The notes beneath the pieces were generated by a model. That model made no database searches and was not told where the DNA came from. It saw only the letters and a program-made list of their open reading frames with translations. The position numbers and the translations under genes were made by a program. This document shows, piece after piece, positions 5,572 through 13,816 of a stretch of 24,264 bases of DNA; positions within the stretch are counted from its first letter, which is position 1; every line of letters begins with the position of its first letter. The DNA comes from Escherichia phage EP-M-A, in sequence record OR992643; one strand, written 5' to 3'.

Positions 5572-5844
5572 ATGATTTACCAACTATACCGCGCCGTTGA
5601 CAGGCGGGATAACACAGAGGCGCTATGGTTATTGCGCGCGCCGTCCGGTGCACACCAGATGGAAGAGATGGCGTACTTAGGCAAAGTGCCACGGCCTAAA
5701 GACATAGGCCGCCACGTGTCGCATATTAAGCGTACGACTTTCGCCAAGCCTGACTTTTATGTCTTCGAGTCGATGTATGGCTGGGCTATGCATTGCCATC
5801 ACAAGACGCGACATTTAATTGACCAGTGGGAGAACAGGGTATGA
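5572..5844 (+). CDS. hypothetical protein, 90 aa
   Basis: GAGGG Shine-Dalgarno 8 nt upstream; ATGA overlap with the downstream nuclease gene; its initiation region repeats the one in front of the DNA polymerase. Confidence 0.6.
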   Translation: MIYQLYRAVDRRDNTEALWLLRAPSGAHQMEEMAYLGKVPRPKDIGRHVSHIKRTTFAKPDFYVFESMYGWAMHCHHKTRHLIDQWENRV

Positions 5845-7082
5845 TTCTTAAAGAACGCGGCGGCAATAATGATGTACATGCCTTACTGTCACCGTCAGGC
5901 GCTAAAAAGTGGCTGAGTTGTGCTGCATCACTGGCCTGTGAAAAAGATATTCCTAACACATCTGGTAAAGCTGCCGTTACAGGGACCGCGTGCCACACTA
6001 TAGCTGAGGTCCATCTCAACGCTTATATTCGCGGAACTGCGCTACCGTTAGAGCGTGAAGTCGGTGCTTATGTTCTGGATGAGGGCAAAGGCCAGATTAA
6101 GGCGCTAATCAGTCCTATGAAAGGCGCTGTACTGATTACGGCGGACATGATTGAGCAGGTGCGCAAGTACACCGACTACTGCAAACCGATTATCGACGTG
6201 GCTACTTTCGCTAAGCTGGAGATGCGCGTAAATCTTACTGAGGTATTGCATCCGGGGTATGAAGGCGTTGAGACGTTCGGAACCGCAGACCTTGTTGCCG
6301 TTCAGGAACTGACAAACACCGACGAGCACATGCTCATTATCGGCGACCTTAAAACAGGGCGGCATCGTGTCGAAGCGAAAGAAAACAAGCAGCTTATGCT
6401 TTACGCTCTCGGTGTTTATCGCAGACTTAAGAGACGTTATAACATAACAACCGTTCGTCTGGTTATCTTCCAGCCGTACGCTGGCGGTGCGTCGGAGTGG
6501 GACATCCCGGTTGAAGGGCTGGAACTGTTCGCCAAGTTCGCACAGAAACGCGCGCTGTTAGCGCTAGATGCGTACTTCCGCGGTAAGAAGAACCTGAAAG
6601 CGTCGGACTTTAAGCCGTCGGTAGATGGTTGTCAGTGGTGTAGGTTCTCTGAACAATGCGCCGCGCGTACAAAGACGGTTAATTCTGTACTGGCGGAAGA
6701 ACTTGAAGACGACTTTGCACTAGAACTAACGCCGGAGCAACTCGTCGCCGAGTATGAGAAGTTGCCGTTGTTGCGCCAGCACATCGATAAGGTCGAGAAA
6801 GCGATGGCGGCCGTGTTGCATTCCGGTAAGAAAGTGCCAGGGTACAAACTGGTTGAAGGCCGCCCGGGTAATCGTGCGTGGAAAGACGCGGAGAAAGTAA
6901 CAGAACTCTACGGCGACAAGCTGACTAAAGAAGTGCTCATGACGCCTACCGAAGCTGTTAAAGTCATACCGGAAGAAGAACTGAAAGACTTCATTACCCG
7001 TAAGCCGGGCGCACCATGTGTCGCAACGGCAGACGACAAACGTCCTGAGTGGAATCAGGTAACAGAGGAGGATTTAGAATGA
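5841..7082 (+). CDS. PD-(D/E)XK exonuclease of the Cas4/RecB-nuclease type with a four-cysteine cluster (probable recombination exonuclease)
   Basis: N-terminal Cys (WLSCAAS); nuclease core TADLVAV...IGDLKTG and QLMLYAL; C-terminal CQWCRFSEQC (C-x2-C-x5-C); ends VTEEDLE. Start set at ATG 5841. Confidence 0.8.
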   Translation: MILKERGGNNDVHALLSPSGAKKWLSCAASLACEKDIPNTSGKAAVTGTACHTIAEVHLNAYIRGTALPLEREVGAYVLDEGKGQIKALISPMKGAVLITADMIEQVRKYTDYCKPIIDVATFAKLEMRVNLTEVLHPGYEGVETFGTADLVAVQELTNTDEHMLIIGDLKTGRHRVEAKENKQLMLYALGVYRRLKRRYNITTVRLVIFQPYAGGASEWDIPVEGLELFAKFAQKRALLALDAYFRGKKNLKASDFKPSVDGCQWCRFSEQCAARTKTVNSVLAEELEDDFALELTPEQLVAEYEKLPLLRQHIDKVEKAMAAVLHSGKKVPGYKLVEGRPGNRAWKDAEKVTELYGDKLTKEVLMTPTEAVKVIPEEELKDFITRKPGAPCVATADDKRPEWNQVTEEDLE

Positions 7083-7406: not shown

Positions 7407-8033
7407 ATGGGACTGAAATTAAATCTGCGTAAAGTAAACACTGCATGGGTTAACGTATTTGAACGCGAAAAAGACCGTGAAAACGATGATGGTTCAATCA
7501 CTAAAGGCCAGTACAGCGCAACTATTATCCTGCCGTCTGACCATGCCCAAATCGATGCACTCTACGACAATGTTTACGCTGTAGTTGAAGAAGCGTTAGG
7601 TGCAGCCGCCGCCGAGAAGTGGATGAAGTCCAACTATGGCGAAGGTAAGCACATGGATAAATGCGCGATTAAAGACATTGCTGAGCGCGACAATCCGTTT
7701 GAAGACTTCCCGGAAGGCTTCTACTTCAAAGCGAAGGCACAGAAACAGCCACTGATTGTAACCTCTAAAAAAGGTGAGACCCAGGTAGAGCAGGACTTCA
7801 ACGTAGACGGTGAACAGATTGAAGGCGAACAGGTTTACAGTGGCTGCGTTGCTAACGTAAGCGTCGAAATCTGGTTCAGCCAGAAATATAAAGTTCTCGG
7901 TGTTAACCTGCTGGCGATTAAGTACGTCGGGGAAGGTAAAGCGTTTGGTGGCTCTAAAGTCGCCGCAAGCGTCGATGACCTGGAAGACGACGAAGAAGAT
8001 GGATCACCGCGCCGCGAACGTCGCCGTCGCTAA
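7407..8033 (+). CDS. single-stranded DNA-binding protein (T7 gp2.5-like), 208 aa
   Basis: Resembles gp2.5-type SSBs (C-terminal ...KAFGG... followed by the acidic tail VDDLEDDEEDG), here extended by a basic RRERRRR end; hairpin terminator downstream. Confidence 0.65.
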   Translation: MGLKLNLRKVNTAWVNVFEREKDRENDDGSITKGQYSATIILPSDHAQIDALYDNVYAVVEEALGAAAAEKWMKSNYGEGKHMDKCAIKDIAERDNPFEDFPEGFYFKAKAQKQPLIVTSKKGETQVEQDFNVDGEQIEGEQVYSGCVANVSVEIWFSQKYKVLGVNLLAIKYVGEGKAFGGSKVAASVDDLEDDEEDGSPRRERRRR

Positions 8034-8092: not shown

Positions 8093-10273
8093 ATGAGTTA
8101 CCTGTTCTTAGACTTTGAAACATTCTCCGAAGCCGATTTGAAGAAAGTCGGTTCTTACGCTTACGCCGAGCATCCGTCAACCGAAGTGCTTATCTGTACA
8201 TACTCTTTTGACGACGAGCCAGTACGTGTATGGGATTGCACTGACGGCAGCGACATGCCAGGAGATTTGCACCGTGCTCTGCGCCGTCTGGTGAAGCCAA
8301 ACAGCCGCATTAAGATGGTGTGGCACAACGGTGGACTTTTCGATAGGCCCATCATGAAACACTGCTGGGGCTTTGATATTCCCGTAAGCAACACCATTGA
8401 TACGATGATTTGGGCGTTTCGTCACGCGCTGCCGGGTTCACTTGATGCGCTGTGTGAAGTGCTCGGCGTGTCTGCTGACAATGCAAAAGATAAACGCGGC
8501 AAGGCGCTGATTCAGCGTTTCTCTAAACCGACACCGAAGAATTACAAAATCCGCCGCTACACCGCAGAAACACACCCGGACGAGTGGGCGCTGTTCATCA
8601 AGTACGCCGTGAGCGACATCACTGCGATGCGTGAAGTCTTCCATAAGCTGCCGCGTTGGGGTAACTCTGAGTTCGAAGACCGTGTACTGGAACTGGACCA
8701 GTTAATCAACGACCGCGGGTTTAAGGTTGACGTTGCACTGGCGGAAGCCGCTATTGAAGCCGTGGAGAAACACAAAGCGCAGTTACAGGAGGAAGCCCAA
8801 CGCAAATACGGCGGCTCGCTTACTGGTAAGGACTTTCTGCCGATTCTTCGTGAACTCTCCCCTGCACACCGCATACACAACGCACAGAAGTCGACGCTTA
8901 ACGACCTGCTGGCGGACGATGATTTACCGGACGACGCACGCACAATTATCGAAATGCGCCTCGGGGCCGCGTCCACCGCGTCAACGAAATATAACCCGCT
9001 GCTGTTGGGCCGCTCGTCTGACGACCGACGCCGTGGTTGCATCCAGTACGGTGGGGCCAAGCGTACGTTACGGTTTGCAGGTAAAGGCTTCCAGCCGCAG
9101 AACCTGGCGCGCGGGTACTATCACGATGATGAATTGGATAAAGGCATTTCAGCGTTACTTAAAGGCCGGGCACACCGCCGTTTTGATGTAGCCAAGCTAA
9201 CGGCATCGACGGTACGTAGCTGCATCATATCGGAAGTGGGGCATAAGTTTGTCGTCGCCGATTACTCAAACGTCGAAGGCCGTGGTTTAGCGTGGCTGGC
9301 AGGCGAAGAAACCGCGCTAGATACGTTCCGCGCCGGACTGGATATTTACTGCGTAACCGCAGGTAAGATGTTCGGCATGGACCCAGATTACATTAAGAAA
9401 GAACGTAAAGATTTGCGCCAGATTGGTAAGGCCTGCGAACTTGGGCTTGGCTATGCGGGCGGTGTCGGCGCATTCGTACAGTTCGCCAAGAACCTTGGCC
9501 TTGACCTGGTTGATATGGCAAAAACAATGGATGGGACTTTCCCCGACCACATCTGGGCTGCTACCGCACGTGGATATGAGTGGGCGCGTATTCAGGAAGC
9601 CAAGCGACCACCACGTCCAGGTGAAAAGGATGACCGACCATCATATATTCTTGATAAGAAAGTGTGGCGTACCTGTGACGCTATCAAGCGCATGTGGCGC
9701 GAGTCTCACCCGGAAACAGTAGCTTTCTGGCGAGATATTGAAGATGCAGCTATGGCGGCTATCCGCAACCCAGGTAAAGAGTTCACCGCAGGGCCGCGGG
9801 GCGTTAAGTTTTCGCGTAACGTAGAAACAGACACCAACGGCAACAAAGTCGCGGGCTGGTGGTTGCGCATGACGTTGCCGTCGGGCCGCGTTATGTCTTA
9901 CCCGGGCGTTGGTTTAAGTGTATCAAAAGAGACAGACGAAGACGGGAAGGTGTCTACTAACGTGCGCATCAAGTACCAGGGCGAAAACCAGTTAACCAGG
10001 CAGTGGGGCTTCCAGTATACCTACTCCGGTAAACTGGTGGAAAACTGCACTCAGGCGCTGTGCCGTGATTTGCTGGCTAATGCCCTGCTTAACGTCGAAG
10101 CAAACGGCTACCCAATTGTGCTTCATGTTCACGATGAGATTATCTGCGAGACGCCAGATTTACCGGAATACAATGTCGCAGAGCTTGAACGGTTGATGTG
10201 CGAATTACCAGAGTGGGCAGAGGGGTTCCCTCTTGTAGCGGAAGGTGCGGAGATGAAGCGCTATGCTAAGTAA
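8093..10273 (+). CDS. family A DNA polymerase with N-terminal 3'-5' proofreading exonuclease domain, 726 aa
   Basis: Exo I motif FLDFETFS; Pol A motif A VVADYSNVEGRGLAWLAG; motif B RQIGKACELGLGYAGG; motif C VLHVHDEIICE. Confidence 0.9.
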   Translation: MSYLFLDFETFSEADLKKVGSYAYAEHPSTEVLICTYSFDDEPVRVWDCTDGSDMPGDLHRALRRLVKPNSRIKMVWHNGGLFDRPIMKHCWGFDIPVSNTIDTMIWAFRHALPGSLDALCEVLGVSADNAKDKRGKALIQRFSKPTPKNYKIRRYTAETHPDEWALFIKYAVSDITAMREVFHKLPRWGNSEFEDRVLELDQLINDRGFKVDVALAEAAIEAVEKHKAQLQEEAQRKYGGSLTGKDFLPILRELSPAHRIHNAQKSTLNDLLADDDLPDDARTIIEMRLGAASTASTKYNPLLLGRSSDDRRRGCIQYGGAKRTLRFAGKGFQPQNLARGYYHDDELDKGISALLKGRAHRRFDVAKLTASTVRSCIISEVGHKFVVADYSNVEGRGLAWLAGEETALDTFRAGLDIYCVTAGKMFGMDPDYIKKERKDLRQIGKACELGLGYAGGVGAFVQFAKNLGLDLVDMAKTMDGTFPDHIWAATARGYEWARIQEAKRPPRPGEKDDRPSYILDKKVWRTCDAIKRMWRESHPETVAFWRDIEDAAMAAIRNPGKEFTAGPRGVKFSRNVETDTNGNKVAGWWLRMTLPSGRVMSYPGVGLSVSKETDEDGKVSTNVRIKYQGENQLTRQWGFQYTYSGKLVENCTQALCRDLLANALLNVEANGYPIVLHVHDEIICETPDLPEYNVAELERLMCELPEWAEGFPLVAEGAEMKRYAK

Positions 10274-10331
10274 ACTGATTATTGCGGTACTGGCGGGATT
10301 CGCCGCCGGTGTCTACTGTCACGAGGGGTAA
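10263..10331 (+). CDS. candidate micro-ORF, 22 aa, hydrophobic (MLSKLIIAVLAGFAAGVYCHEG)
   Basis: Hand translation; overlaps the polymerase stop; its terminal GAGGGG doubles as the Shine-Dalgarno for the next micro-ORF. Speculative. Confidence 0.25.
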   Translation: MLSKLIIAVLAGFAAGVYCHEG

Positions 10332-10337
10332 TACGGC

Positions 10338-10394
10338 ATGATGGTAGCCGTATTGGGTATGTTCATCGCAATTTATCTGTGGGTGCTGGAATGA
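10338..10394 (+). CDS. candidate micro-ORF, 18 aa, hydrophobic (MMVAVLGMFIAIYLWVLE)
   Basis: GAGGGG 9 nt upstream; ATGA overlap with the next micro-ORF. Speculative. Confidence 0.3.
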   Translation: MMVAVLGMFIAIYLWVLE

Positions 10395-10480
10395 AAATTT
10401 ACTGGTTTTATGAGGAAGACTGCCGAATCTGTCCGCGCTGCGGTATTGAGCATACGAAACGTGAGGGGTGTGTATTATGA
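10391..10480 (+). CDS. candidate micro-ORF, 29 aa, Cys-rich zinc-ribbon-like peptide (MKIYWFYEEDCRICPRCGIEHTKREGCVL)
   Basis: C-x2-C-x2-C pattern plus a further Cys; ATGA overlaps on both sides (previous micro-ORF and HNH gene). Speculative. Confidence 0.3.
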   Translation: MKIYWFYEEDCRICPRCGIEHTKREGCVL

Positions 10481-10974
10481 AAGCACCAAGTGACGATATA
10501 AAAGATTTTCTGTCATACGACCCAGATACCGGGATATTTAAATGGGTCAAGCACAGATGCCAGACCGCGAAACCCGGAGATGTTGTTACATACAAGGACC
10601 GTAAAGGGTACATATTGTTAGGATGGAATAGGGTGTATTACCGCGCACACAGGCTGGCGTGGTGGTGGGTGTACGGAGAGATGCCAACTAAGCAAATAGA
10701 CCATATTAACGGCATACGGGACGATAATCGGATTTGTAACCTACGGCTTGCGGATGAATTTCAACAGAACCATAACCGCAAGACCCCAGTTACAAACACC
10801 AGCGGGGTGAAAGGGGTTAACTGGAGTAAGCACCATAATGCTTGGTGTGCCCGCGTTGGTTTTAAAGGTACACGCCACCAGATTGGGTATTTCCAGAACC
10901 TAAATGAAGCAGACGAATCGCTGAGAGAATTTAGGGCAAAACTGCACGGAGAGTTTTGCAACCATGGCGACTAA
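10477..10974 (+). CDS. HNH homing endonuclease with C-terminal AP2-type DNA-binding domain
   Basis: HNH_3-like HRLAWWWVYGEMPTKQIDHINGIRDDNRICNLR; AP2-like GVKGVNWSKHHNAWCARVGFKGTRHQIGYF. Start at ATG 10477 with a GAGGGG Shine-Dalgarno. Confidence 0.8.
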   Translation: MKAPSDDIKDFLSYDPDTGIFKWVKHRCQTAKPGDVVTYKDRKGYILLGWNRVYYRAHRLAWWWVYGEMPTKQIDHINGIRDDNRICNLRLADEFQQNHNRKTPVTNTSGVKGVNWSKHHNAWCARVGFKGTRHQIGYFQNLNEADESLREFRAKLHGEFCNHGD

Positions 10975-11251
10975 AGAGGGCCGCGTACAGAAATACGCAA
11001 AAGAGCAATTCGAGGCCATTGGCGGCCTCGTTCGTAAACTTTCGTACGAGGGGCGCTCCGGCGCCCCTGACCTGCTGGTAATTCTCCCCGGCGGCATCGT
11101 CTGGTTCGTCGAGGTTAAGAAAGACGAAAACACGAAGCCTGACCCGCACCAGTTACGTGAGCATGAGCGGATGCGTAAACGCGGTGCAAATGTTTTTGTC
11201 GTTGGTTCGTTTAAACAGGTTGACGACCTAATAGCGAACTATTATAGTTAG
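10964..11251 (+). CDS. VRR-NUC domain nuclease (PD-(D/E)XK fold), 95 aa
   Basis: Core GAPDLLVILPGGIVWFVEVKKD (D...E-V-K) is typical of VRR-NUC; start overlaps the HNH stop. Confidence 0.7.
   Translation: MATKEGRVQKYAKEQFEAIGGLVRKLSYEGRSGAPDLLVILPGGIVWFVEVKKDENTKPDPHQLREHERMRKRGANVFVVGSFKQVDDLIANYYS
11220..11248 (+). promoter_or_regulatory. sigma70-like promoter (-35 TTGACG, 17 nt spacer, -10 TATAGT) with palindrome AATAG-cgaa-CTATT, embedded in the last codons of the VRR-NUC gene
   Basis: TTGACG 11220-11225, TATAGT 11243-11248; same architecture as the promoters at 4998 and 7311; followed by the leader motif ACACCAACAAT shared with the 22870 region. Confidence 0.6.
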
Positions 11252-11281
11252 CCATACACCAACAATATAAGGAATTGAGAA

Positions 11282-11473
11282 ATGAAACACGAATATGACC
11301 GCAAGCCAGCACGTGACATCGTACCTGGCGACATGATTTTCAACGTTAAGACCCGCCAGCCTGTTGCCGTTGATACTGTGTTCGTCGAGTCAAACGGTAA
11401 ACTGGTTATCGAAGATGTAACCGGTAACGTTACGGCGTTCGGGCGTAAAGAGCTAGTTTTGGTGGCAAAATGA
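11282..11473 (+). CDS. hypothetical protein, 63 aa
   Basis: AAGGA Shine-Dalgarno upstream; ATGA overlap with the downstream methyltransferase gene. Confidence 0.6.
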   Translation: MKHEYDRKPARDIVPGDMIFNVKTRQPVAVDTVFVESNGKLVIEDVTGNVTAFGRKELVLVAK

Positions 11474-12399
11474 ACTATTACAACGAGTGGGATAAAGGCG
11501 CAACCGCGTGGCTGCGCGAGTTGATAAAACAGGGCCACATACCTTTTGGAGTTGTAGATGAAAGAAGCATTACTGAAGTTAGACCAGAAGACCTTGACGG
11601 GTTCACCCAGTGTCATTTTTTCGCTGGTATCGGCGGCTGGTCTCTCGCGCTCAGACTTGCGGGAGTTTCGGAAGATACGCCTCTCTGGACGGGAAGCCCG
11701 CCTTGCCAACCGTTTAGCGCGGCAGGAAAACAACTCGGACAGTTCGACCCGAGACACCTCGCTCCAGTCTTCCTTGACCTCATCAGCGAGTGCCGTCCTC
11801 CAGTCATCTTTGGGGAACAAGTTGCGCCAGCAATTGCAAAATCGTGGATGTGCGATTTACAAACTCACCTGGAAGGAGAAGACTACGCCGTCGGGTTTGC
11901 CGTACTCCCAGCTTGTAGCGTCGGCGCACCGCACAAACGCGACAGGCTGTTCTTCGGCGCGCACAGACTGGCCCACACCGGCGGTATCACTGATAACAAA
12001 CGACGTGAACATGCGCAGCACAGACGGCAGGACGAAACCGAACAAACTGGGATGGGCCGCTGCGATGGCGGCATGGGTGACGCCGACCGCGAACGATTAC
12101 AGAGGGAGCGGAGAGACAGTTATTCGCAAGGACGGGAAGGACAGGACATTCAGCAGGCTGGACTACTCAACGGAGCAGGGACTGAAAATATCGCGGCCAA
12201 TCCGCATCACGGCTTCTGGTCAGATACTGACTGGCTCGGATGCCGGGATGGAAAATTCAGGCCAGTTGAACCCGGCACATTCCCGCTGGCTAATGGGGTA
12301 CCCGCCAGAGTGGGACGATTGCGCGGTTATGGCAATGCCATCGTCCCGCAAGTAGCCGCTGAATTTATAAAGGCATTCATGGGGGCGGTAAATGAGTAA
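11470..12399 (+). CDS. DNA (cytosine-5)-methyltransferase; the long ORF in this frame carries motifs I, IV, VI, VIII and X, but the TRD and motif IX appear to lie in the +1 frame (ORF 11558..12355)
   Basis: This frame: HFFAGIGG (I), SPPCQPFSAAGKQ (IV), FGEQV (VI), GAPHKRDRLFFGA (VIII), GYGNAIVPQVAAEFIKA (X). The +1 frame: RPIRITASG and LNPAHSRWLMGYPPEW (motif IX-like). Confidence 0.75.
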   Translation: MNYYNEWDKGATAWLRELIKQGHIPFGVVDERSITEVRPEDLDGFTQCHFFAGIGGWSLALRLAGVSEDTPLWTGSPPCQPFSAAGKQLGQFDPRHLAPVFLDLISECRPPVIFGEQVAPAIAKSWMCDLQTHLEGEDYAVGFAVLPACSVGAPHKRDRLFFGAHRLAHTGGITDNKRREHAQHRRQDETEQTGMGRCDGGMGDADRERLQRERRDSYSQGREGQDIQQAGLLNGAGTENIAANPHHGFWSDTDWLGCRDGKFRPVEPGTFPLANGVPARVGRLRGYGNAIVPQVAAEFIKAFMGAVNE

Positions 12400-13816
12400 G
12401 TTTCAAAGGCGCGAGTACCAGAAGCTCATGACTTCGTTCATGCTGCAACACCCGCGCTGTAATATCTGGTGCGGAATGGGGGGAGGTAAAACCTCCTCCA
12501 CTATGTGGGTGCTCAACCGCCTGTTCCGCAACGGGCAGCTTACGGAAGAGGACCGCGTGTTAATCCTTGCCCCGTTACGTGTTGCGTCCGGTACGTGGCC
12601 CGCTGAACAAGAGAAATGGCAATTCCCTTGTCTGCGTGTCGTAGATGCAACTGGTTCGGAGAAGCGCCGCATCGCGGCGCTGGAGTCAGATGCTAACGTG
12701 GTGTGCACTAACTACGAAGTTATCGAATGGCTGATTGACTACTACGGCAAAGACGACTGGCCTTTCACGGTTATCGTTGCCGATGAAAGCACGAAGCTAA
12801 AATCTTTCCGCAGCTGTTCGGGTGGGAGCAAGCGAGCGAAGGCGCTCAGCAAAGTGGCATTCGGTAAAGTTAAGCGTTTCATCAACCTGACTGGTACACC
12901 ATCACCTAACGGCCTCAAGGACTTGTGGGGCCAGAACTGGTTTATCGACGCAGGAGAGCGCCTCGGTTCATCGTACACGGCATTCACCGACCGCTGGTTT
13001 AACTCAGTGCAGAAAGGTAAGTCGGCTATGGCGCGTGAATATCACGCCCGCCCGGGTGCGGATACTGAGATTCATCAGAAGATGAAAGACATTAGTCTCA
13101 CGATTGACGCTGCCGAGTGGTTTGGTTGTGAAGCGCCGATTATTGTACCGGTTGAAATCGACCTGCCTAAGAAAGCGCGTCAGGCGTACATCGATATGGA
13201 GGAGAAGTTATTCGCGGAACTGGAGAGCGGAGAAGTTGAAGCCGCTAACGCGGCGGCGAAGACGTCGAAGTGCCTCCAGATTGCATCCGGCGCCGTGTAT
13301 GTGTCGGGGCCAGACGGCGAAGCAACCAAAGACTGGGAGAAAGTGCACGACACGAAACTGGATGCGCTGGGGTCGATTGTTGAGGAGTTACAGGGTGCAC
13401 CGCTGCTTGTGGCTTATCAGTTCAAGCACGAACTGGAACGCATCCTGAAACGTTTCCCGCAGGCACAGGCGTTTGCAAAAGGCGCTAAGGGTAATAAGCA
13501 GATGGAAGCGTGGAACCGTGGCGAAATCGAAATCCTATGCGTACATCCTGCGTCAGCCGGGCATGGTTTGAATTTACAGGACGGCGGTCACCATCTGGCG
13601 TTTATTTCGCAGGGCTGGAACCTTGAGCACTATTTGCAGGTCGTTGAGCGCATCGGCCCGGTACGCCAGAAACAGGCGGGCCACGAGCGCCCGGTGTTCC
13701 TCTACCATATCGTAGCTAAAGACACGCTGGATGAGGTTGTTGCTGCGCGTACAGACGAGAAGAAATCTGTACAGGAAGAGTTGCTTAACTACATGAAGAG
13801 ACGAGGTAAGAAATGA
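12392..13816 (+). CDS. SNF2/Rad54-family DNA-dependent ATPase (helicase-like), 474 aa
   Basis: Motif I GMGGGKT; motif II VIVADESTKLK; motif III LTGTPSPNGLKDLW; C-terminal helicase motifs HPASAGHGLNLQDGGHHLAF; overlaps the methyltransferase stop. Confidence 0.85.
   Translation: MSKFQRREYQKLMTSFMLQHPRCNIWCGMGGGKTSSTMWVLNRLFRNGQLTEEDRVLILAPLRVASGTWPAEQEKWQFPCLRVVDATGSEKRRIAALESDANVVCTNYEVIEWLIDYYGKDDWPFTVIVADESTKLKSFRSCSGGSKRAKALSKVAFGKVKRFINLTGTPSPNGLKDLWGQNWFIDAGERLGSSYTAFTDRWFNSVQKGKSAMAREYHARPGADTEIHQKMKDISLTIDAAEWFGCEAPIIVPVEIDLPKKARQAYIDMEEKLFAELESGEVEAANAAAKTSKCLQIASGAVYVSGPDGEATKDWEKVHDTKLDALGSIVEELQGAPLLVAYQFKHELERILKRFPQAQAFAKGAKGNKQMEAWNRGEIEILCVHPASAGHGLNLQDGGHHLAFISQGWNLEHYLQVVERIGPVRQKQAGHERPVFLYHIVAKDTLDEVVAARTDEKKSVQEELLNYMKRRGKK

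What the first reader, a model, noticed from the sequence alone, without database searches (positions are those of the whole stretch)
10263..10974. Freestanding HNH-AP2 homing endonuclease with three translationally coupled micro-ORFs, inserted between polymerase and VRR-NUC genes
The 200 bp between the polymerase stop and the HNH gene holds a chain of three overlapping micro-ORFs of 22, 18 and 29 aa. Two are strongly hydrophobic and the third is a Cys-x2-Cys-x2-Cys zinc-ribbon-like peptide, each linked to the next by an ATGA or Shine-Dalgarno-in-stop arrangement. HNH-AP2 genes are mobile and commonly invade replication modules. The micro-ORFs could be real small proteins, remnants of a disrupted gene, or a leader that controls endonuclease expression.
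Basis: partly seen in the sequence, partly recalled or inferred. Interest (0 to 1): 0.5.

Follow-up and report, generated by a model that had tools for sequence, protein, structure and literature searches.

The report
Phage homing endonuclease beside small genes
This stretch of an E. coli phage genome holds an ordinary mobile HNH-AP2 endonuclease gene sitting in a swap-prone slot, just downstream of two conserved miniature genes (one broken in two by a stop codon in this phage); all of this is already annotated in related phages.

Summary
The window is Escherichia phage EP-B-K_E2 (Kagunavirus, Guernseyvirinae). ORFs of 22, 18 and 29 aa, an HNH gene (10477-10974) and VRR-NUC follow the polymerase in one chain of overlapping stops and starts.

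The interpretation needs correcting. The 22- and 18-aa ORFs are the two halves of one conserved 43-aa two-helix membrane miniprotein (phrog_10404). It is uninterrupted in 46 of 47 relatives and is split here only by a CAA->TAA change at 10329. The 29-aa Cys-rich ORF is a second conserved gene (phrog_38225), found in 444 GenBank phage records.

Both small genes evolve under purifying selection in frame (pN/pS 0.20 and 0.12, versus above 1 out of frame). Both occur in hundreds of relatives without the HNH gene, so they are not an endonuclease-specific leader.

The HNH protein is an intact HNH_3 plus AP2-fold enzyme. It occupies a polymorphic slot between the 29-aa gene and VRR-NUC that is elsewhere empty or holds other small cassettes. 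It is present in 54 of 444 records. Its synonymous divergence from Salmonella phage SETP3 is 0.17, against 0.66 for the polymerase, which supports recent lateral spread. A decayed HNH remnant remains in phage Jersey.

Known kind, low novelty.

The parts
8093..10273 (+). Family A DNA polymerase (context). Its last four codons overlap the start of the 43-aa gene.
   Evidence: Pfam DNA_pol_A 8.6e-15. Annotated as DNA polymerase in K1G, Jersey and SETP3.
10263..10331 (+). Micro-ORF1 (22 aa): the N-terminal half (first hydrophobic helix) of the conserved 43-aa gene, phrog_10404.
   Evidence: GGAG lies 10 nt upstream of the ATG.
10329..10331 (+). In-frame TAA where relatives have CAA (Gln23). This nonsense change is specific to this phage and splits the 43-aa gene.
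   Evidence: 46 of 47 loci have no stop. The TAA allele gave 0 hits in IMG/VR and in metagenomes, while the CAA control gave 19.
10338..10394 (+). Micro-ORF2 (18 aa): the C-terminal half (second hydrophobic helix) of the same gene. It could be re-initiated at ATG-ATG behind the GAGGGG at 10324-10328.
   Evidence: Same frame as ORF1. Re-initiation is inferred, not shown.
10391..10480 (+). 29-aa Cys-rich gene (phrog_38225), a core gene of Guernseyvirinae. Its codons R-E-G (GAGGGG, 10463-10468) serve as the Shine-Dalgarno sequence, and its TGA overlaps the ATG of the next gene.
   Evidence: phrog_38225 at 2.5e-22. Present in 54 of 54 loci and 444 GenBank records. pN/pS 0.12.
10477..10974 (+). Free-standing HNH(N)-AP2 endonuclease, 165 aa. 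The HNH_3 motif covers residues 55-92 (nt 10639-10752). The AP2-like three-strand plus helix domain covers residues about 109-160 (nt 10801-10956).
10964..11251 (+). VRR-NUC nuclease, annotated as Holliday junction resolvase in relatives. Its start overlaps the HNH stop. Its N-terminus here is MATKEG, versus MTKEG, MTPEG or MSTPEG in alleles without the HNH gene.

Best explanation
From the polymerase stop to VRR-NUC, the genes form one co-transcribed, translationally coupled chain in the replication module of a Kagunavirus.

The first two small genes are genuine and conserved. One is a 43-aa hairpin membrane miniprotein. In this phage a CAA->TAA mutation breaks it into 22- and 18-aa pieces. 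The other is a 29-aa Cys-rich miniprotein that is core to the subfamily. Its 3' end carries the Shine-Dalgarno sequence (GAGGGG) and the ATGA stop/start overlap that launches translation of whatever gene follows.

Directly after that ATGA lies a polymorphic cassette slot. In most relatives it is empty or holds other small genes. Here it holds a free-standing HNH(N)-AP2 homing-type endonuclease, which has spread laterally between Salmonella and Escherichia phages.

Inferred, not shown: during co-infection the enzyme cuts HNH-less genomes near the slot and is copied in by recombinational repair. The small genes are expressed independently of it. Their own functions are unknown.
For: Small genes are real and independent of the HNH gene:
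- The 43-aa ORF is intact in 46 of 47 loci. The 29-aa ORF is intact in 54 of 54.
- pN/pS is 0.20 and 0.12 in frame, against 1.2-3.3 out of frame. Polymerase and VRR-NUC give 0.18 and 0.19.
- Both give full-length PHROG hits at 1e-31 and 2.5e-22.
- The 43-aa family forms 82 protein clusters, nearly all exactly 43 aa.
- In 7 loci a precise deletion joins codons 1-5 of the 43-aa gene in frame to codon 2 of the 29-aa gene. The 29-aa gene therefore keeps a start codon.

The slot is polymorphic:
- It is empty (gap -14 or -4), or holds a 23-25-aa, a 50-aa or a 64-aa cassette, 64+50, HNH, 64+HNH, or an HNH remnant. All are joined by overlapping stop/start codons.
- Counts among 444 GenBank records: window-type HNH 54, a second HNH type 4, the 50-aa cassette 121, the 64-aa cassette 51.

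The HNH gene is intact and mobile:
- Pfam HNH_3 at 2e-12 and all invariant family residues are present.
- A model at pLDDT 93.7 matches I-HmuI and AP2 domains, with rmsd 1.6-1.9 A for the AP2 domains.
- pN/pS is 0.09-0.20.
- Against SETP3, pS is 0.17 for HNH, versus 0.66 for polymerase, 0.74 for ssb and 0.45 for VRR-NUC.
- Phage Jersey keeps only a 40-aa N-terminal HNH remnant at the same site.

Co-transcription: no promoter- or terminator-like site lies between the polymerase and VRR-NUC.
Against: - There is no direct evidence of translation of the small ORFs, and none of endonuclease activity or a cleavage site.
- These phages are mosaic in general. Low synonymous divergence of the HNH gene could reflect ordinary recombination rather than endonuclease-driven homing.
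- The TAA could be a sequencing error, since it is seen in a single unannotated record.
- Pfam AP2 is below its gathering score for this protein itself (14.5 bits against 33.3).
- The Foldseek E-values are weak (about 1e-2), because each domain is small.
Confidence: 0.8

Rival explanations
1. The 203-nt interval is a non-coding or uORF-type leader that controls expression of the HNH endonuclease. On this view the micro-ORF peptides themselves have no function.
For: All junctions are ATGA or SD-in-stop overlaps, so HNH translation is probably coupled to the 29-aa ORF. The SD for the HNH gene lies inside that ORF.
Against: The same two ORFs are present in several hundred genomes without the HNH gene (444 records with the 29-aa gene against 54+4 with an HNH). 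Amino-acid sequence, not just nucleotide sequence, is under purifying selection. An independent deletion preserved the 29-aa frame and its start codon.
Confidence: 0.05
2. The HNH protein is a domesticated nuclease with a role in the phage's own life cycle or in competition, rather than a selfish homing element. Examples would be marker exclusion against co-infecting relatives, or replication and repair together with VRR-NUC.
For: It is under purifying selection (pN/pS 0.09-0.20). It sits next to replication and recombination genes. Two HNH lineages with 52% identity occupy the same slot, with conserved N- and C-terminal ends, which suggests long residence.
Against: It is absent from about 87% of related genomes, all of them viable isolates. 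A decayed copy survives in Jersey. Synonymous divergence is much lower than in the flanking genes, as expected for an element that moves.
Confidence: 0.12
3. The three micro-ORFs are chance ORFs, or decayed remnants of a formerly larger gene, and are of no present function.
For: ORF1 and ORF2 are indeed fragments of a disrupted gene in this phage. The 43-aa gene is repeatedly lost elsewhere: 7 deletions, an ATG->ACG change in SETP3, and rare frameshifted clusters.
Against: The intact 43-aa and 29-aa frames are conserved with pN/pS well below 1. Length is fixed at 43 aa in nearly all 82 clusters. The antisense 115-aa ORF is not conserved, with stops in 28 of 47 relatives.
Confidence: 0.03

Closest known systems
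Salmonella phage SETP3 gp37 (YP_001110809.2, 'HNH endonuclease') and its orthologues in BPS11Q3, SETP7, EM1 and vB-Eco-KMB36
   Same: Same gene (93-98% amino-acid identity, 165 aa) in the same slot between the 29-aa gene and VRR-NUC, with the same overlaps.
   Different: Different host genus for the Salmonella copies. EM1 has an extra 64-aa cassette upstream of the HNH gene. Only the window phage carries the nonsense codon in the upstream 43-aa gene.
HNN-AP2 free-standing endonucleases of phages (Xanthomonas phages Xp10, OP1 and Xop411; T5 and T1), as described in PMC2248197 and Magnani et al. 2004 (cited there)
   Same: HNH_3-type motif with the HRLAW, DH, DNR, NLR and N boxes, no Cys dyads, and a C-terminal AP2 domain. 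Free-standing, patchily distributed, with degenerate copies in relatives.
   Different: Only about 165 aa, with a short N-terminal beta domain. A single copy per genome at one fixed slot, rather than dispersed copies.
I-HmuI (PDB 1u3e), the HNH homing endonuclease of Bacillus phage SPO1
   Same: Best structural match of the model (Foldseek prob 0.93). Same beta-beta-alpha-metal nuclease core.
   Different: I-HmuI is intron-encoded and uses different DNA-binding modules, not AP2. Sequence identity is 19%, and sequence search against PDB finds nothing.
phrog_10404 and phrog_38225 (phage protein families of unknown function). Annotated as hypothetical proteins in Jersey gp41, Shashou gp42 and gp41, KMB36 and EM1 gp64.
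   Same: Full-length matches. Same position and same overlaps.
   Different: In the window, the phrog_10404 member is interrupted by a stop codon.

Membership tests
HNH_3 / HNN-type His-Me finger endonuclease | Beta-beta-alpha-metal motif with the catalytic His and the conserved Asn residues | tested here: met
   Pfam PF13392 at 2e-12, 47 bits against a cut-off of 24.8. H58, D75, H76, N84, N88, L89, R90 and N100 are invariant across 61 homologues including the window protein. The top fold match is I-HmuI.
HNH-AP2 (HNN-AP2) endonucleases | C-terminal AP2 DNA-binding domain, judged by sequence profile | tested here: inconclusive
   Pfam PF00847 covers profile positions 1-53 of 54 at residues 109-158, but scores only 14.5 bits (E=0.045) against a cut-off of 33.3. 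About 60% of the 120 best homologues carry precomputed PF00847 together with PF13392.
HNH-AP2 (HNN-AP2) endonucleases | AP2 fold: a three-stranded sheet packed on a helix | tested here: met
   The model has pLDDT 93.7, with strands at 114-117, 122-129 and 132-139 and a helix at 142-160. Foldseek matches TEM1 AP2 (7et5, prob 1.00, rmsd 1.9 A) and AtERF1 (1gcc, prob 1.00, rmsd 1.6 A, TM 0.63 normalised to the target length).
Free-standing homing endonuclease gene | Own ORF between genes, not inside an intron or intein | tested here: met
   Separate ORF at 10477-10974, with stop/start overlaps to both neighbours.
Free-standing homing endonuclease gene | Presence/absence polymorphism at one locus among close relatives, with signs of lateral transfer and decay | tested here: met
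   Present in 54 of 444 records. Empty alleles exist. pS is 0.17 against 0.45-0.74 for neighbouring genes versus SETP3. A remnant survives in Jersey.
Free-standing homing endonuclease gene | Site-specific cleavage of the endonuclease-less allele and over-transmission in crosses | not testable with these tools
   Needs enzyme assays and mixed infections.
phrog_10404 (43-aa membrane miniprotein) | Uninterrupted 43-codon ORF starting inside the polymerase stop region | tested here: not met
   The sequence matches over 43 of 43 positions once Gln23 is restored. In the window, however, TAA at 10329 splits it. 46 of 47 relatives are intact.
phrog_38225 (29-aa Cys-rich miniprotein) | Full-length match and intact ORF at the conserved position | tested here: met
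   E = 2.5e-22 over residues 1-28. Same position in 54 of 54 loci.
Zinc ribbon / zinc knuckle | Four conserved metal ligands, typically two CxxC knuckles | tested here: inconclusive
   The pattern is C11-x2-C14-x2-C17-x9-C27. C14 and C27 are invariant. C17 is kept in 53 of 54 loci. C11 is replaced by R or F in several loci, and H21 also varies. There is no significant Pfam hit. Metal binding was not tested.
Regulatory leader / uORF of the HNH gene | Co-occurrence with the regulated gene | tested here: not met
   The ORFs are present in about 390 records that lack any HNH gene in this slot.

The most novel reading that the evidence does not exclude
The conserved unit formed by the 43-aa gene, the 29-aa gene, the SD and the ATGA might act as a fixed expression-ready docking site for gene cassettes in Guernseyvirinae. 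Cassettes would swap by microhomology at the repeated TTATTATGA junction. The 64-aa cassette is flanked by this repeat. The unusually low synonymous divergence of this short unit, compared with the polymerase gene next to it, might reflect repeated co-conversion driven by the HNH endonuclease, whose target would then lie within it.
Probability: 0.12. Interest if true: 0.45.

Novelty: already known. Interest (0 to 1): 0.2.

Why it matters
The finding has little general importance. It matters mainly for annotation. The source record is unannotated, and gene callers often miss the 43-aa and 29-aa genes: K1G, K1ind and several Salmonella phage records list no feature there.

Three modest uses follow:
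- The comparison gives exact boundaries of a homing-endonuclease slot and natural empty alleles, which could serve as substrates for a cleavage assay.
- It shows that the 29-aa miniprotein is a never-lost core gene, whereas the 43-aa membrane miniprotein is dispensable. That ranks them as targets for small-protein studies.
- The nonsense allele is a natural knockout or split of the 43-aa gene in a viable phage.

Tried and rejected
1. A hairpin at 10330-10354 (AATACGGC / GCCGTATT) straddling the ORF1/ORF2 junction. The 3' arm varies in many relatives without compensating changes in the nearly invariant 5' arm, so I rejected it as a conserved RNA element.
2. The antisense 115-aa ORF at 10266-10613. 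It contains stops in 28 of 47 relatives, so it is spurious.
3. Promoters or terminators within the interval. None were found. The only good promoter-like site is at 11220-11248, in the VRR-NUC 3' end.
4. Other carriers of the TAA allele. None were found in IMG/VR or in metagenome contigs, although the CAA control pattern gave 19 hits.
5. Sequence search of the HNH protein against PDB. It found nothing. NCBIfam has no model for any of these proteins.
I used tblastn against GenBank phages instead.
7. Analogous small genes in more distant relatives (polymerase 35-70% identical). The polymerase-to-VRR-NUC interval there ranges from direct adjacency to 1.3 kb with unrelated ORFs, including another HNH-AP2 gene in L074. 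No homologues of the 43-aa or 29-aa genes are present.
8. I could not identify the endonuclease target site computationally.
Full report
**Identity of the window**

Window 9700-11500 is 100% identical to Escherichia phage EP-B-K_E2 (OR992644.1, an unannotated record). It matches 434 Guernseyvirinae records at 80-95% identity, mostly Kagunavirus from E. coli and Jerseyvirus from Salmonella.

The surrounding genes form a replication module:
- DUF2800/PD-(D/E)XK nuclease (5826-7082)
- Enc34-type ssDNA-binding protein (7407-8033)
- family A polymerase (8093-10273)
- VRR-NUC (10964-11251)
- a 63-aa gene
- C5 methylase (11470-12399)
- SNF2 helicase (12392-13816)

**Check of the observation**

- ORF1 runs 10263-10331 (22 aa). 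Its ATG lies inside the last polymerase codons.
- ORF2 runs 10338-10394 (18 aa).
- ORF3 runs 10391-10480 (29 aa; C-x2-C-x2-C plus a distal Cys).
- The HNH gene runs 10477-10974 (165 aa from the ATG).
- VRR-NUC starts at 10964.
- ORF2/ORF3 and ORF3/HNH are ATGA overlaps. ORF1 ends in GAGGGGTAA, six bases before ORF2's ATG.
- The HNH stop lies within VRR-NUC codons 3-4.

**The three micro-ORFs are two genes**

ORF1 and ORF2 are in the same frame. An alignment with K1G, EM1, Jersey and SETP3 shows CAA (Gln) where the window has TAA at 10329-10331.

I compared 82 related loci fetched through the VRR-NUC protein, plus the annotated GenBank loci. Of these, 47 carry this ORF. It is an uninterrupted 43-codon frame in 46, and the window is the only one with a stop.

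The restored 43-aa protein matches phrog_10404 over all 43 positions (E = 1.2e-31). The 29-aa protein matches phrog_38225 (E = 2.5e-22). A search of the large protein collection found 82 clusters of the 43-aa protein. All are at least 79% identical, nearly all are exactly 43 aa, and they sit on contigs of about 40-45 kb. The few 72-73-aa members are frameshift fusions into the 29-aa frame.

The 29-aa gene is found by tblastn in 444 GenBank phage records, essentially the same set of Guernseyvirinae genomes.

The TAA allele was not found in IMG/VR or in the metagenome collection. The CAA control pattern hit 19 viral contigs.

**Coding test**

I applied Nei-Gojobori counting to the unique sequences.
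- 43-aa gene, excluding the four codons that overlap the polymerase: pS 0.221, pN 0.045, ratio 0.20.
- 29-aa gene: pS 0.408, pN 0.049, ratio 0.12.
- The two alternative frames of each give ratios of 1.2-3.3.
- The polymerase C-terminus and VRR-NUC give 0.18 and 0.19.

Variable columns concentrate at third codon positions: 30 versus 21 and 11 for the 43-aa gene, and 23 versus 9 and 8 for the 29-aa gene. The frames themselves are conserved.

A further natural experiment supports the 29-aa gene. In seven Jerseyvirus-type loci a precise deletion between two copies of TGATTAT removes the 43-aa gene. It joins that gene's first five codons in frame to codon 2 of the 29-aa gene (MLSKL-IIYYF...). The 29-aa gene therefore keeps an ATG that overlaps the polymerase stop.

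The 43-aa gene is dispensable and has been lost repeatedly:
- the seven deletions above
- the window's nonsense codon
- in SETP3, a TAT->TAC change, synonymous for the polymerase, that destroys the small gene's ATG
- rare frameshifted clusters

The 29-aa gene, by contrast, is present in every locus.

The antisense 115-aa ORF (10266-10613) has stops in 28 of 47 relatives and is spurious.

**Not an HNH leader**

Both small genes are present in the great majority of relatives, and those lack the HNH gene. The 29-aa gene occurs in 444 records. The window-type HNH occurs in 54, and a second HNH type in 4.

One link to the HNH gene is real. The codons Arg-Glu-Gly of the 29-aa gene (CGT GAG GGG, 10461-10469) form a good Shine-Dalgarno sequence 8-10 nt before the ATG at 10477. 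The gene's TGA overlaps that ATG. In empty-slot relatives the same SD and ATG(A) serve VRR-NUC directly. No promoter-like or terminator-like site lies between the polymerase and VRR-NUC. Co-transcription and translational coupling are inferred from this anatomy and were not measured.

**The slot**

The interval between the stop of the 29-aa gene and the VRR-NUC start is polymorphic. It takes the following forms:
- Empty, in two forms. In one, the 29-aa ORF is extended to 32 aa and overlaps VRR-NUC by 14 nt. In the other, there is an ATGA overlap.
- A 23-25-aa hydrophobic ORF.
- A 50-aa two-helix hydrophobic ORF (K1G type, phrog_14925).
- A 64-aa Cys-containing ORF (phrog_25645).
- The 64-aa and 50-aa ORFs together.
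- The HNH gene (window, KMB36, SETP3).
- The 64-aa ORF plus the HNH gene (EM1).
- A 40-aa HNH remnant (Jersey).

All junctions are overlapping stop/start codons (ATGA, GTGA, TAATG, TGATG).

The 64-aa cassette ends in GTT(A/G)TTATGA, which repeats the GTATTATGA at the end of the 29-aa gene.

Counts in GenBank phages: the 50-aa cassette is in 121 records. The 64-aa cassette is in 51 at full length, plus weaker matches in Klebsiella phages.

In more distant relatives (polymerase 35-70% identical) the polymerase-to-VRR-NUC interval ranges from direct adjacency to 1.3 kb of unrelated ORFs. One of these holds another HNH-AP2-like gene. None has homologues of the two small genes.

**The HNH protein**

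Sequence evidence:
- Pfam HNH_3 at 2e-12 (residues 55-92).
- Pfam AP2 covers the whole profile at residues 109-158, but scores only 14.5 bits, below its cut-off.
- phrog_99 'HNH endonuclease' at 2.4e-64.
- Of the 120 best homologues, roughly 60% carry precomputed AP2 plus HNH_3.
- In a 61-sequence alignment the window protein keeps every invariant residue: H58, D75, H76, N84, N88, L89, R90 and N100.

Structural evidence:
- An AlphaFold model built on that alignment has mean pLDDT 93.7. It shows a C-terminal three-strand sheet plus a long helix.
- Foldseek against PDB ranks I-HmuI first. It then lists plant AP2 domains: TEM1 (7et5) and AtERF1 (1gcc), at probability 1.00 and rmsd 1.9 and 1.6 A.
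- The E-values are weak because the domains are small.

The motif boxes (HRLAW, DH, DNR, NLR, terminal N, no Cys dyads) are those of the 'HNN-AP2' phage endonucleases described for Xanthomonas, T5 and T1 phages in PMC2248197.

**Mobility signals**

- Patchy distribution: 54 of 444 records. Only three are Escherichia phages (EP-B-K_E2, EM1, KMB36). There is one copy per genome, always at this site.
- Similarity across host genera: 93.6-96.7% nucleotide identity. Polymerase tiles between the window and SETP3 are 71-79% identical, while HNH tiles are 93-97%.
- Synonymous divergence, window versus SETP3: HNH 0.17, ssb 0.74, polymerase 0.66, VRR-NUC 0.45, the 63-aa gene 0.29. The HNH gene is also the least diverged gene against KMB36 and EM1.
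- Function is maintained: pN/pS is 0.09-0.20.
- Decay: Jersey keeps only the first 25-30 codons and the last few bases. That remnant resembles the second HNH lineage (Shashou, Sciku, ZCEC5). This lineage is 52% identical overall to the window protein but nearly identical to it at both ends, and sits in the same slot.

These are the classical signatures of a free-standing homing endonuclease gene. Cleavage specificity and actual homing remain untested. Homing endonucleases and inteins are already recognised as accessory mobile elements of Jerseyviruses (PMC8425127).

**Consequence of the nonsense codon (inference)**

Ribosomes that terminate at 10331 are six bases from ATG-ATG (10338-10343), with GAGGGG 9-10 nt upstream of it. 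Re-initiation could therefore produce the second helix as an 18-aa peptide and preserve coupling into the 29-aa gene. Alternatively, the 43-aa gene is simply a pseudogene here. That would fit its repeated loss elsewhere. A sequencing error cannot be excluded from one record.

**Functions of the two miniproteins**

These are unknown. The 43-aa protein has two hydrophobic stretches of about 17 residues joined by CHEGQYG, which suggests a membrane hairpin. The 29-aa protein has invariant C14 and C27, a nearly invariant C17, and variable C11 and H21. Metal binding is therefore plausible but unproven. No Pfam or NCBIfam family matches either protein.

**Verdict**

The region holds a known kind of element: an HNH(N)-AP2 free-standing homing-type endonuclease. 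The same gene is annotated at the same position in SETP3, BPS11Q3, SETP7, EM1 and KMB36. Next to it lie two already catalogued small phage genes.

The points specific to this phage are the nonsense split of the 43-aa gene and the rarity of this endonuclease among Escherichia phages. Interest is low.

Noticed in passing
window 11470-12399 and 11558-12355 (+): The C5 DNA methylase ORF (309 aa; Pfam DNA_methylase 4e-17, matching only residues 74-181) contains a 265-aa ORF in another frame of the same strand. That ORF has no Pfam hit but shows methylase-like motifs by eye (WPTP..., NPxxSRWLMGYPPEW). The middle of the 309-aa frame is R/E/Q/G-rich low complexity. The K1G record annotates two overlapping 'DNA methyltransferase' CDS at the same place. 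It may be a frameshifted, recoded or overprinted methylase.
   Followed up: partly
window about 10230 (just upstream of the polymerase stop): There is a sharp break in divergence. Against KMB36 and SETP3 the last roughly 200 nt of the polymerase differ at about 15 of every 50 positions, and from 10230 onward at only 1-5 of 50. The polymerase C-terminus exists as two deeply diverged alleles (about 95-100% versus 70-80% amino-acid identity) across the subfamily. The small-gene unit thus looks like a conserved island between exchangeable modules.
   Followed up: partly
L023, L041, L042, L043, L045, L047, L052 (polymerase stop region): A precise deletion of the 43-aa gene between two TGATTAT repeats creates an in-frame fusion, MLSKL + IIYYF...: the start of the 43-aa gene joined to the 29-aa gene.
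   Followed up: yes
L004/L086 (SETP3), polymerase stop region: A TAT->TAC change, synonymous for the polymerase Tyr codon, converts the ATG of the 43-aa gene to ACG. SETP3 probably does not translate the full 43-aa protein.
   Followed up: no
L003 1277-1399 (phage Jersey) and L087 3753-4244 (Shashou): A second HNH lineage (52% amino-acid identity, with near-identical first about 25 and last about 10 residues) occupies the same slot in Shashou, Sciku and ZCEC5. Jersey's 40-aa remnant derives from this lineage, not from the window type.
   Followed up: partly
L002 1253-1447; L007, L036, L037 about 2350: The 64-aa cassette (phrog_25645) is bounded by a direct repeat of the junction (G)T(A/T)TTATGA. 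Related copies also occur in 22 Klebsiella phage records. This may indicate cassette insertion mediated by microhomology.
   Followed up: partly
L084 (EM1), L086 (SETP3), L087 (Shashou), compared with window 11470-12400: The HNH-bearing relatives lack the methylase found in the window. They carry other mobile elements in the same module instead: EM1 has three HNH genes (gp66, gp62, gp59), and SETP3 and Shashou have an intein in the helicase.
   Followed up: no
window 11220-11248 (+): The best sigma-70-like promoter match in the region (10 of 12) lies in the 3' end of VRR-NUC. This is the same place as the promoter annotated in phage Jersey.
   Followed up: no
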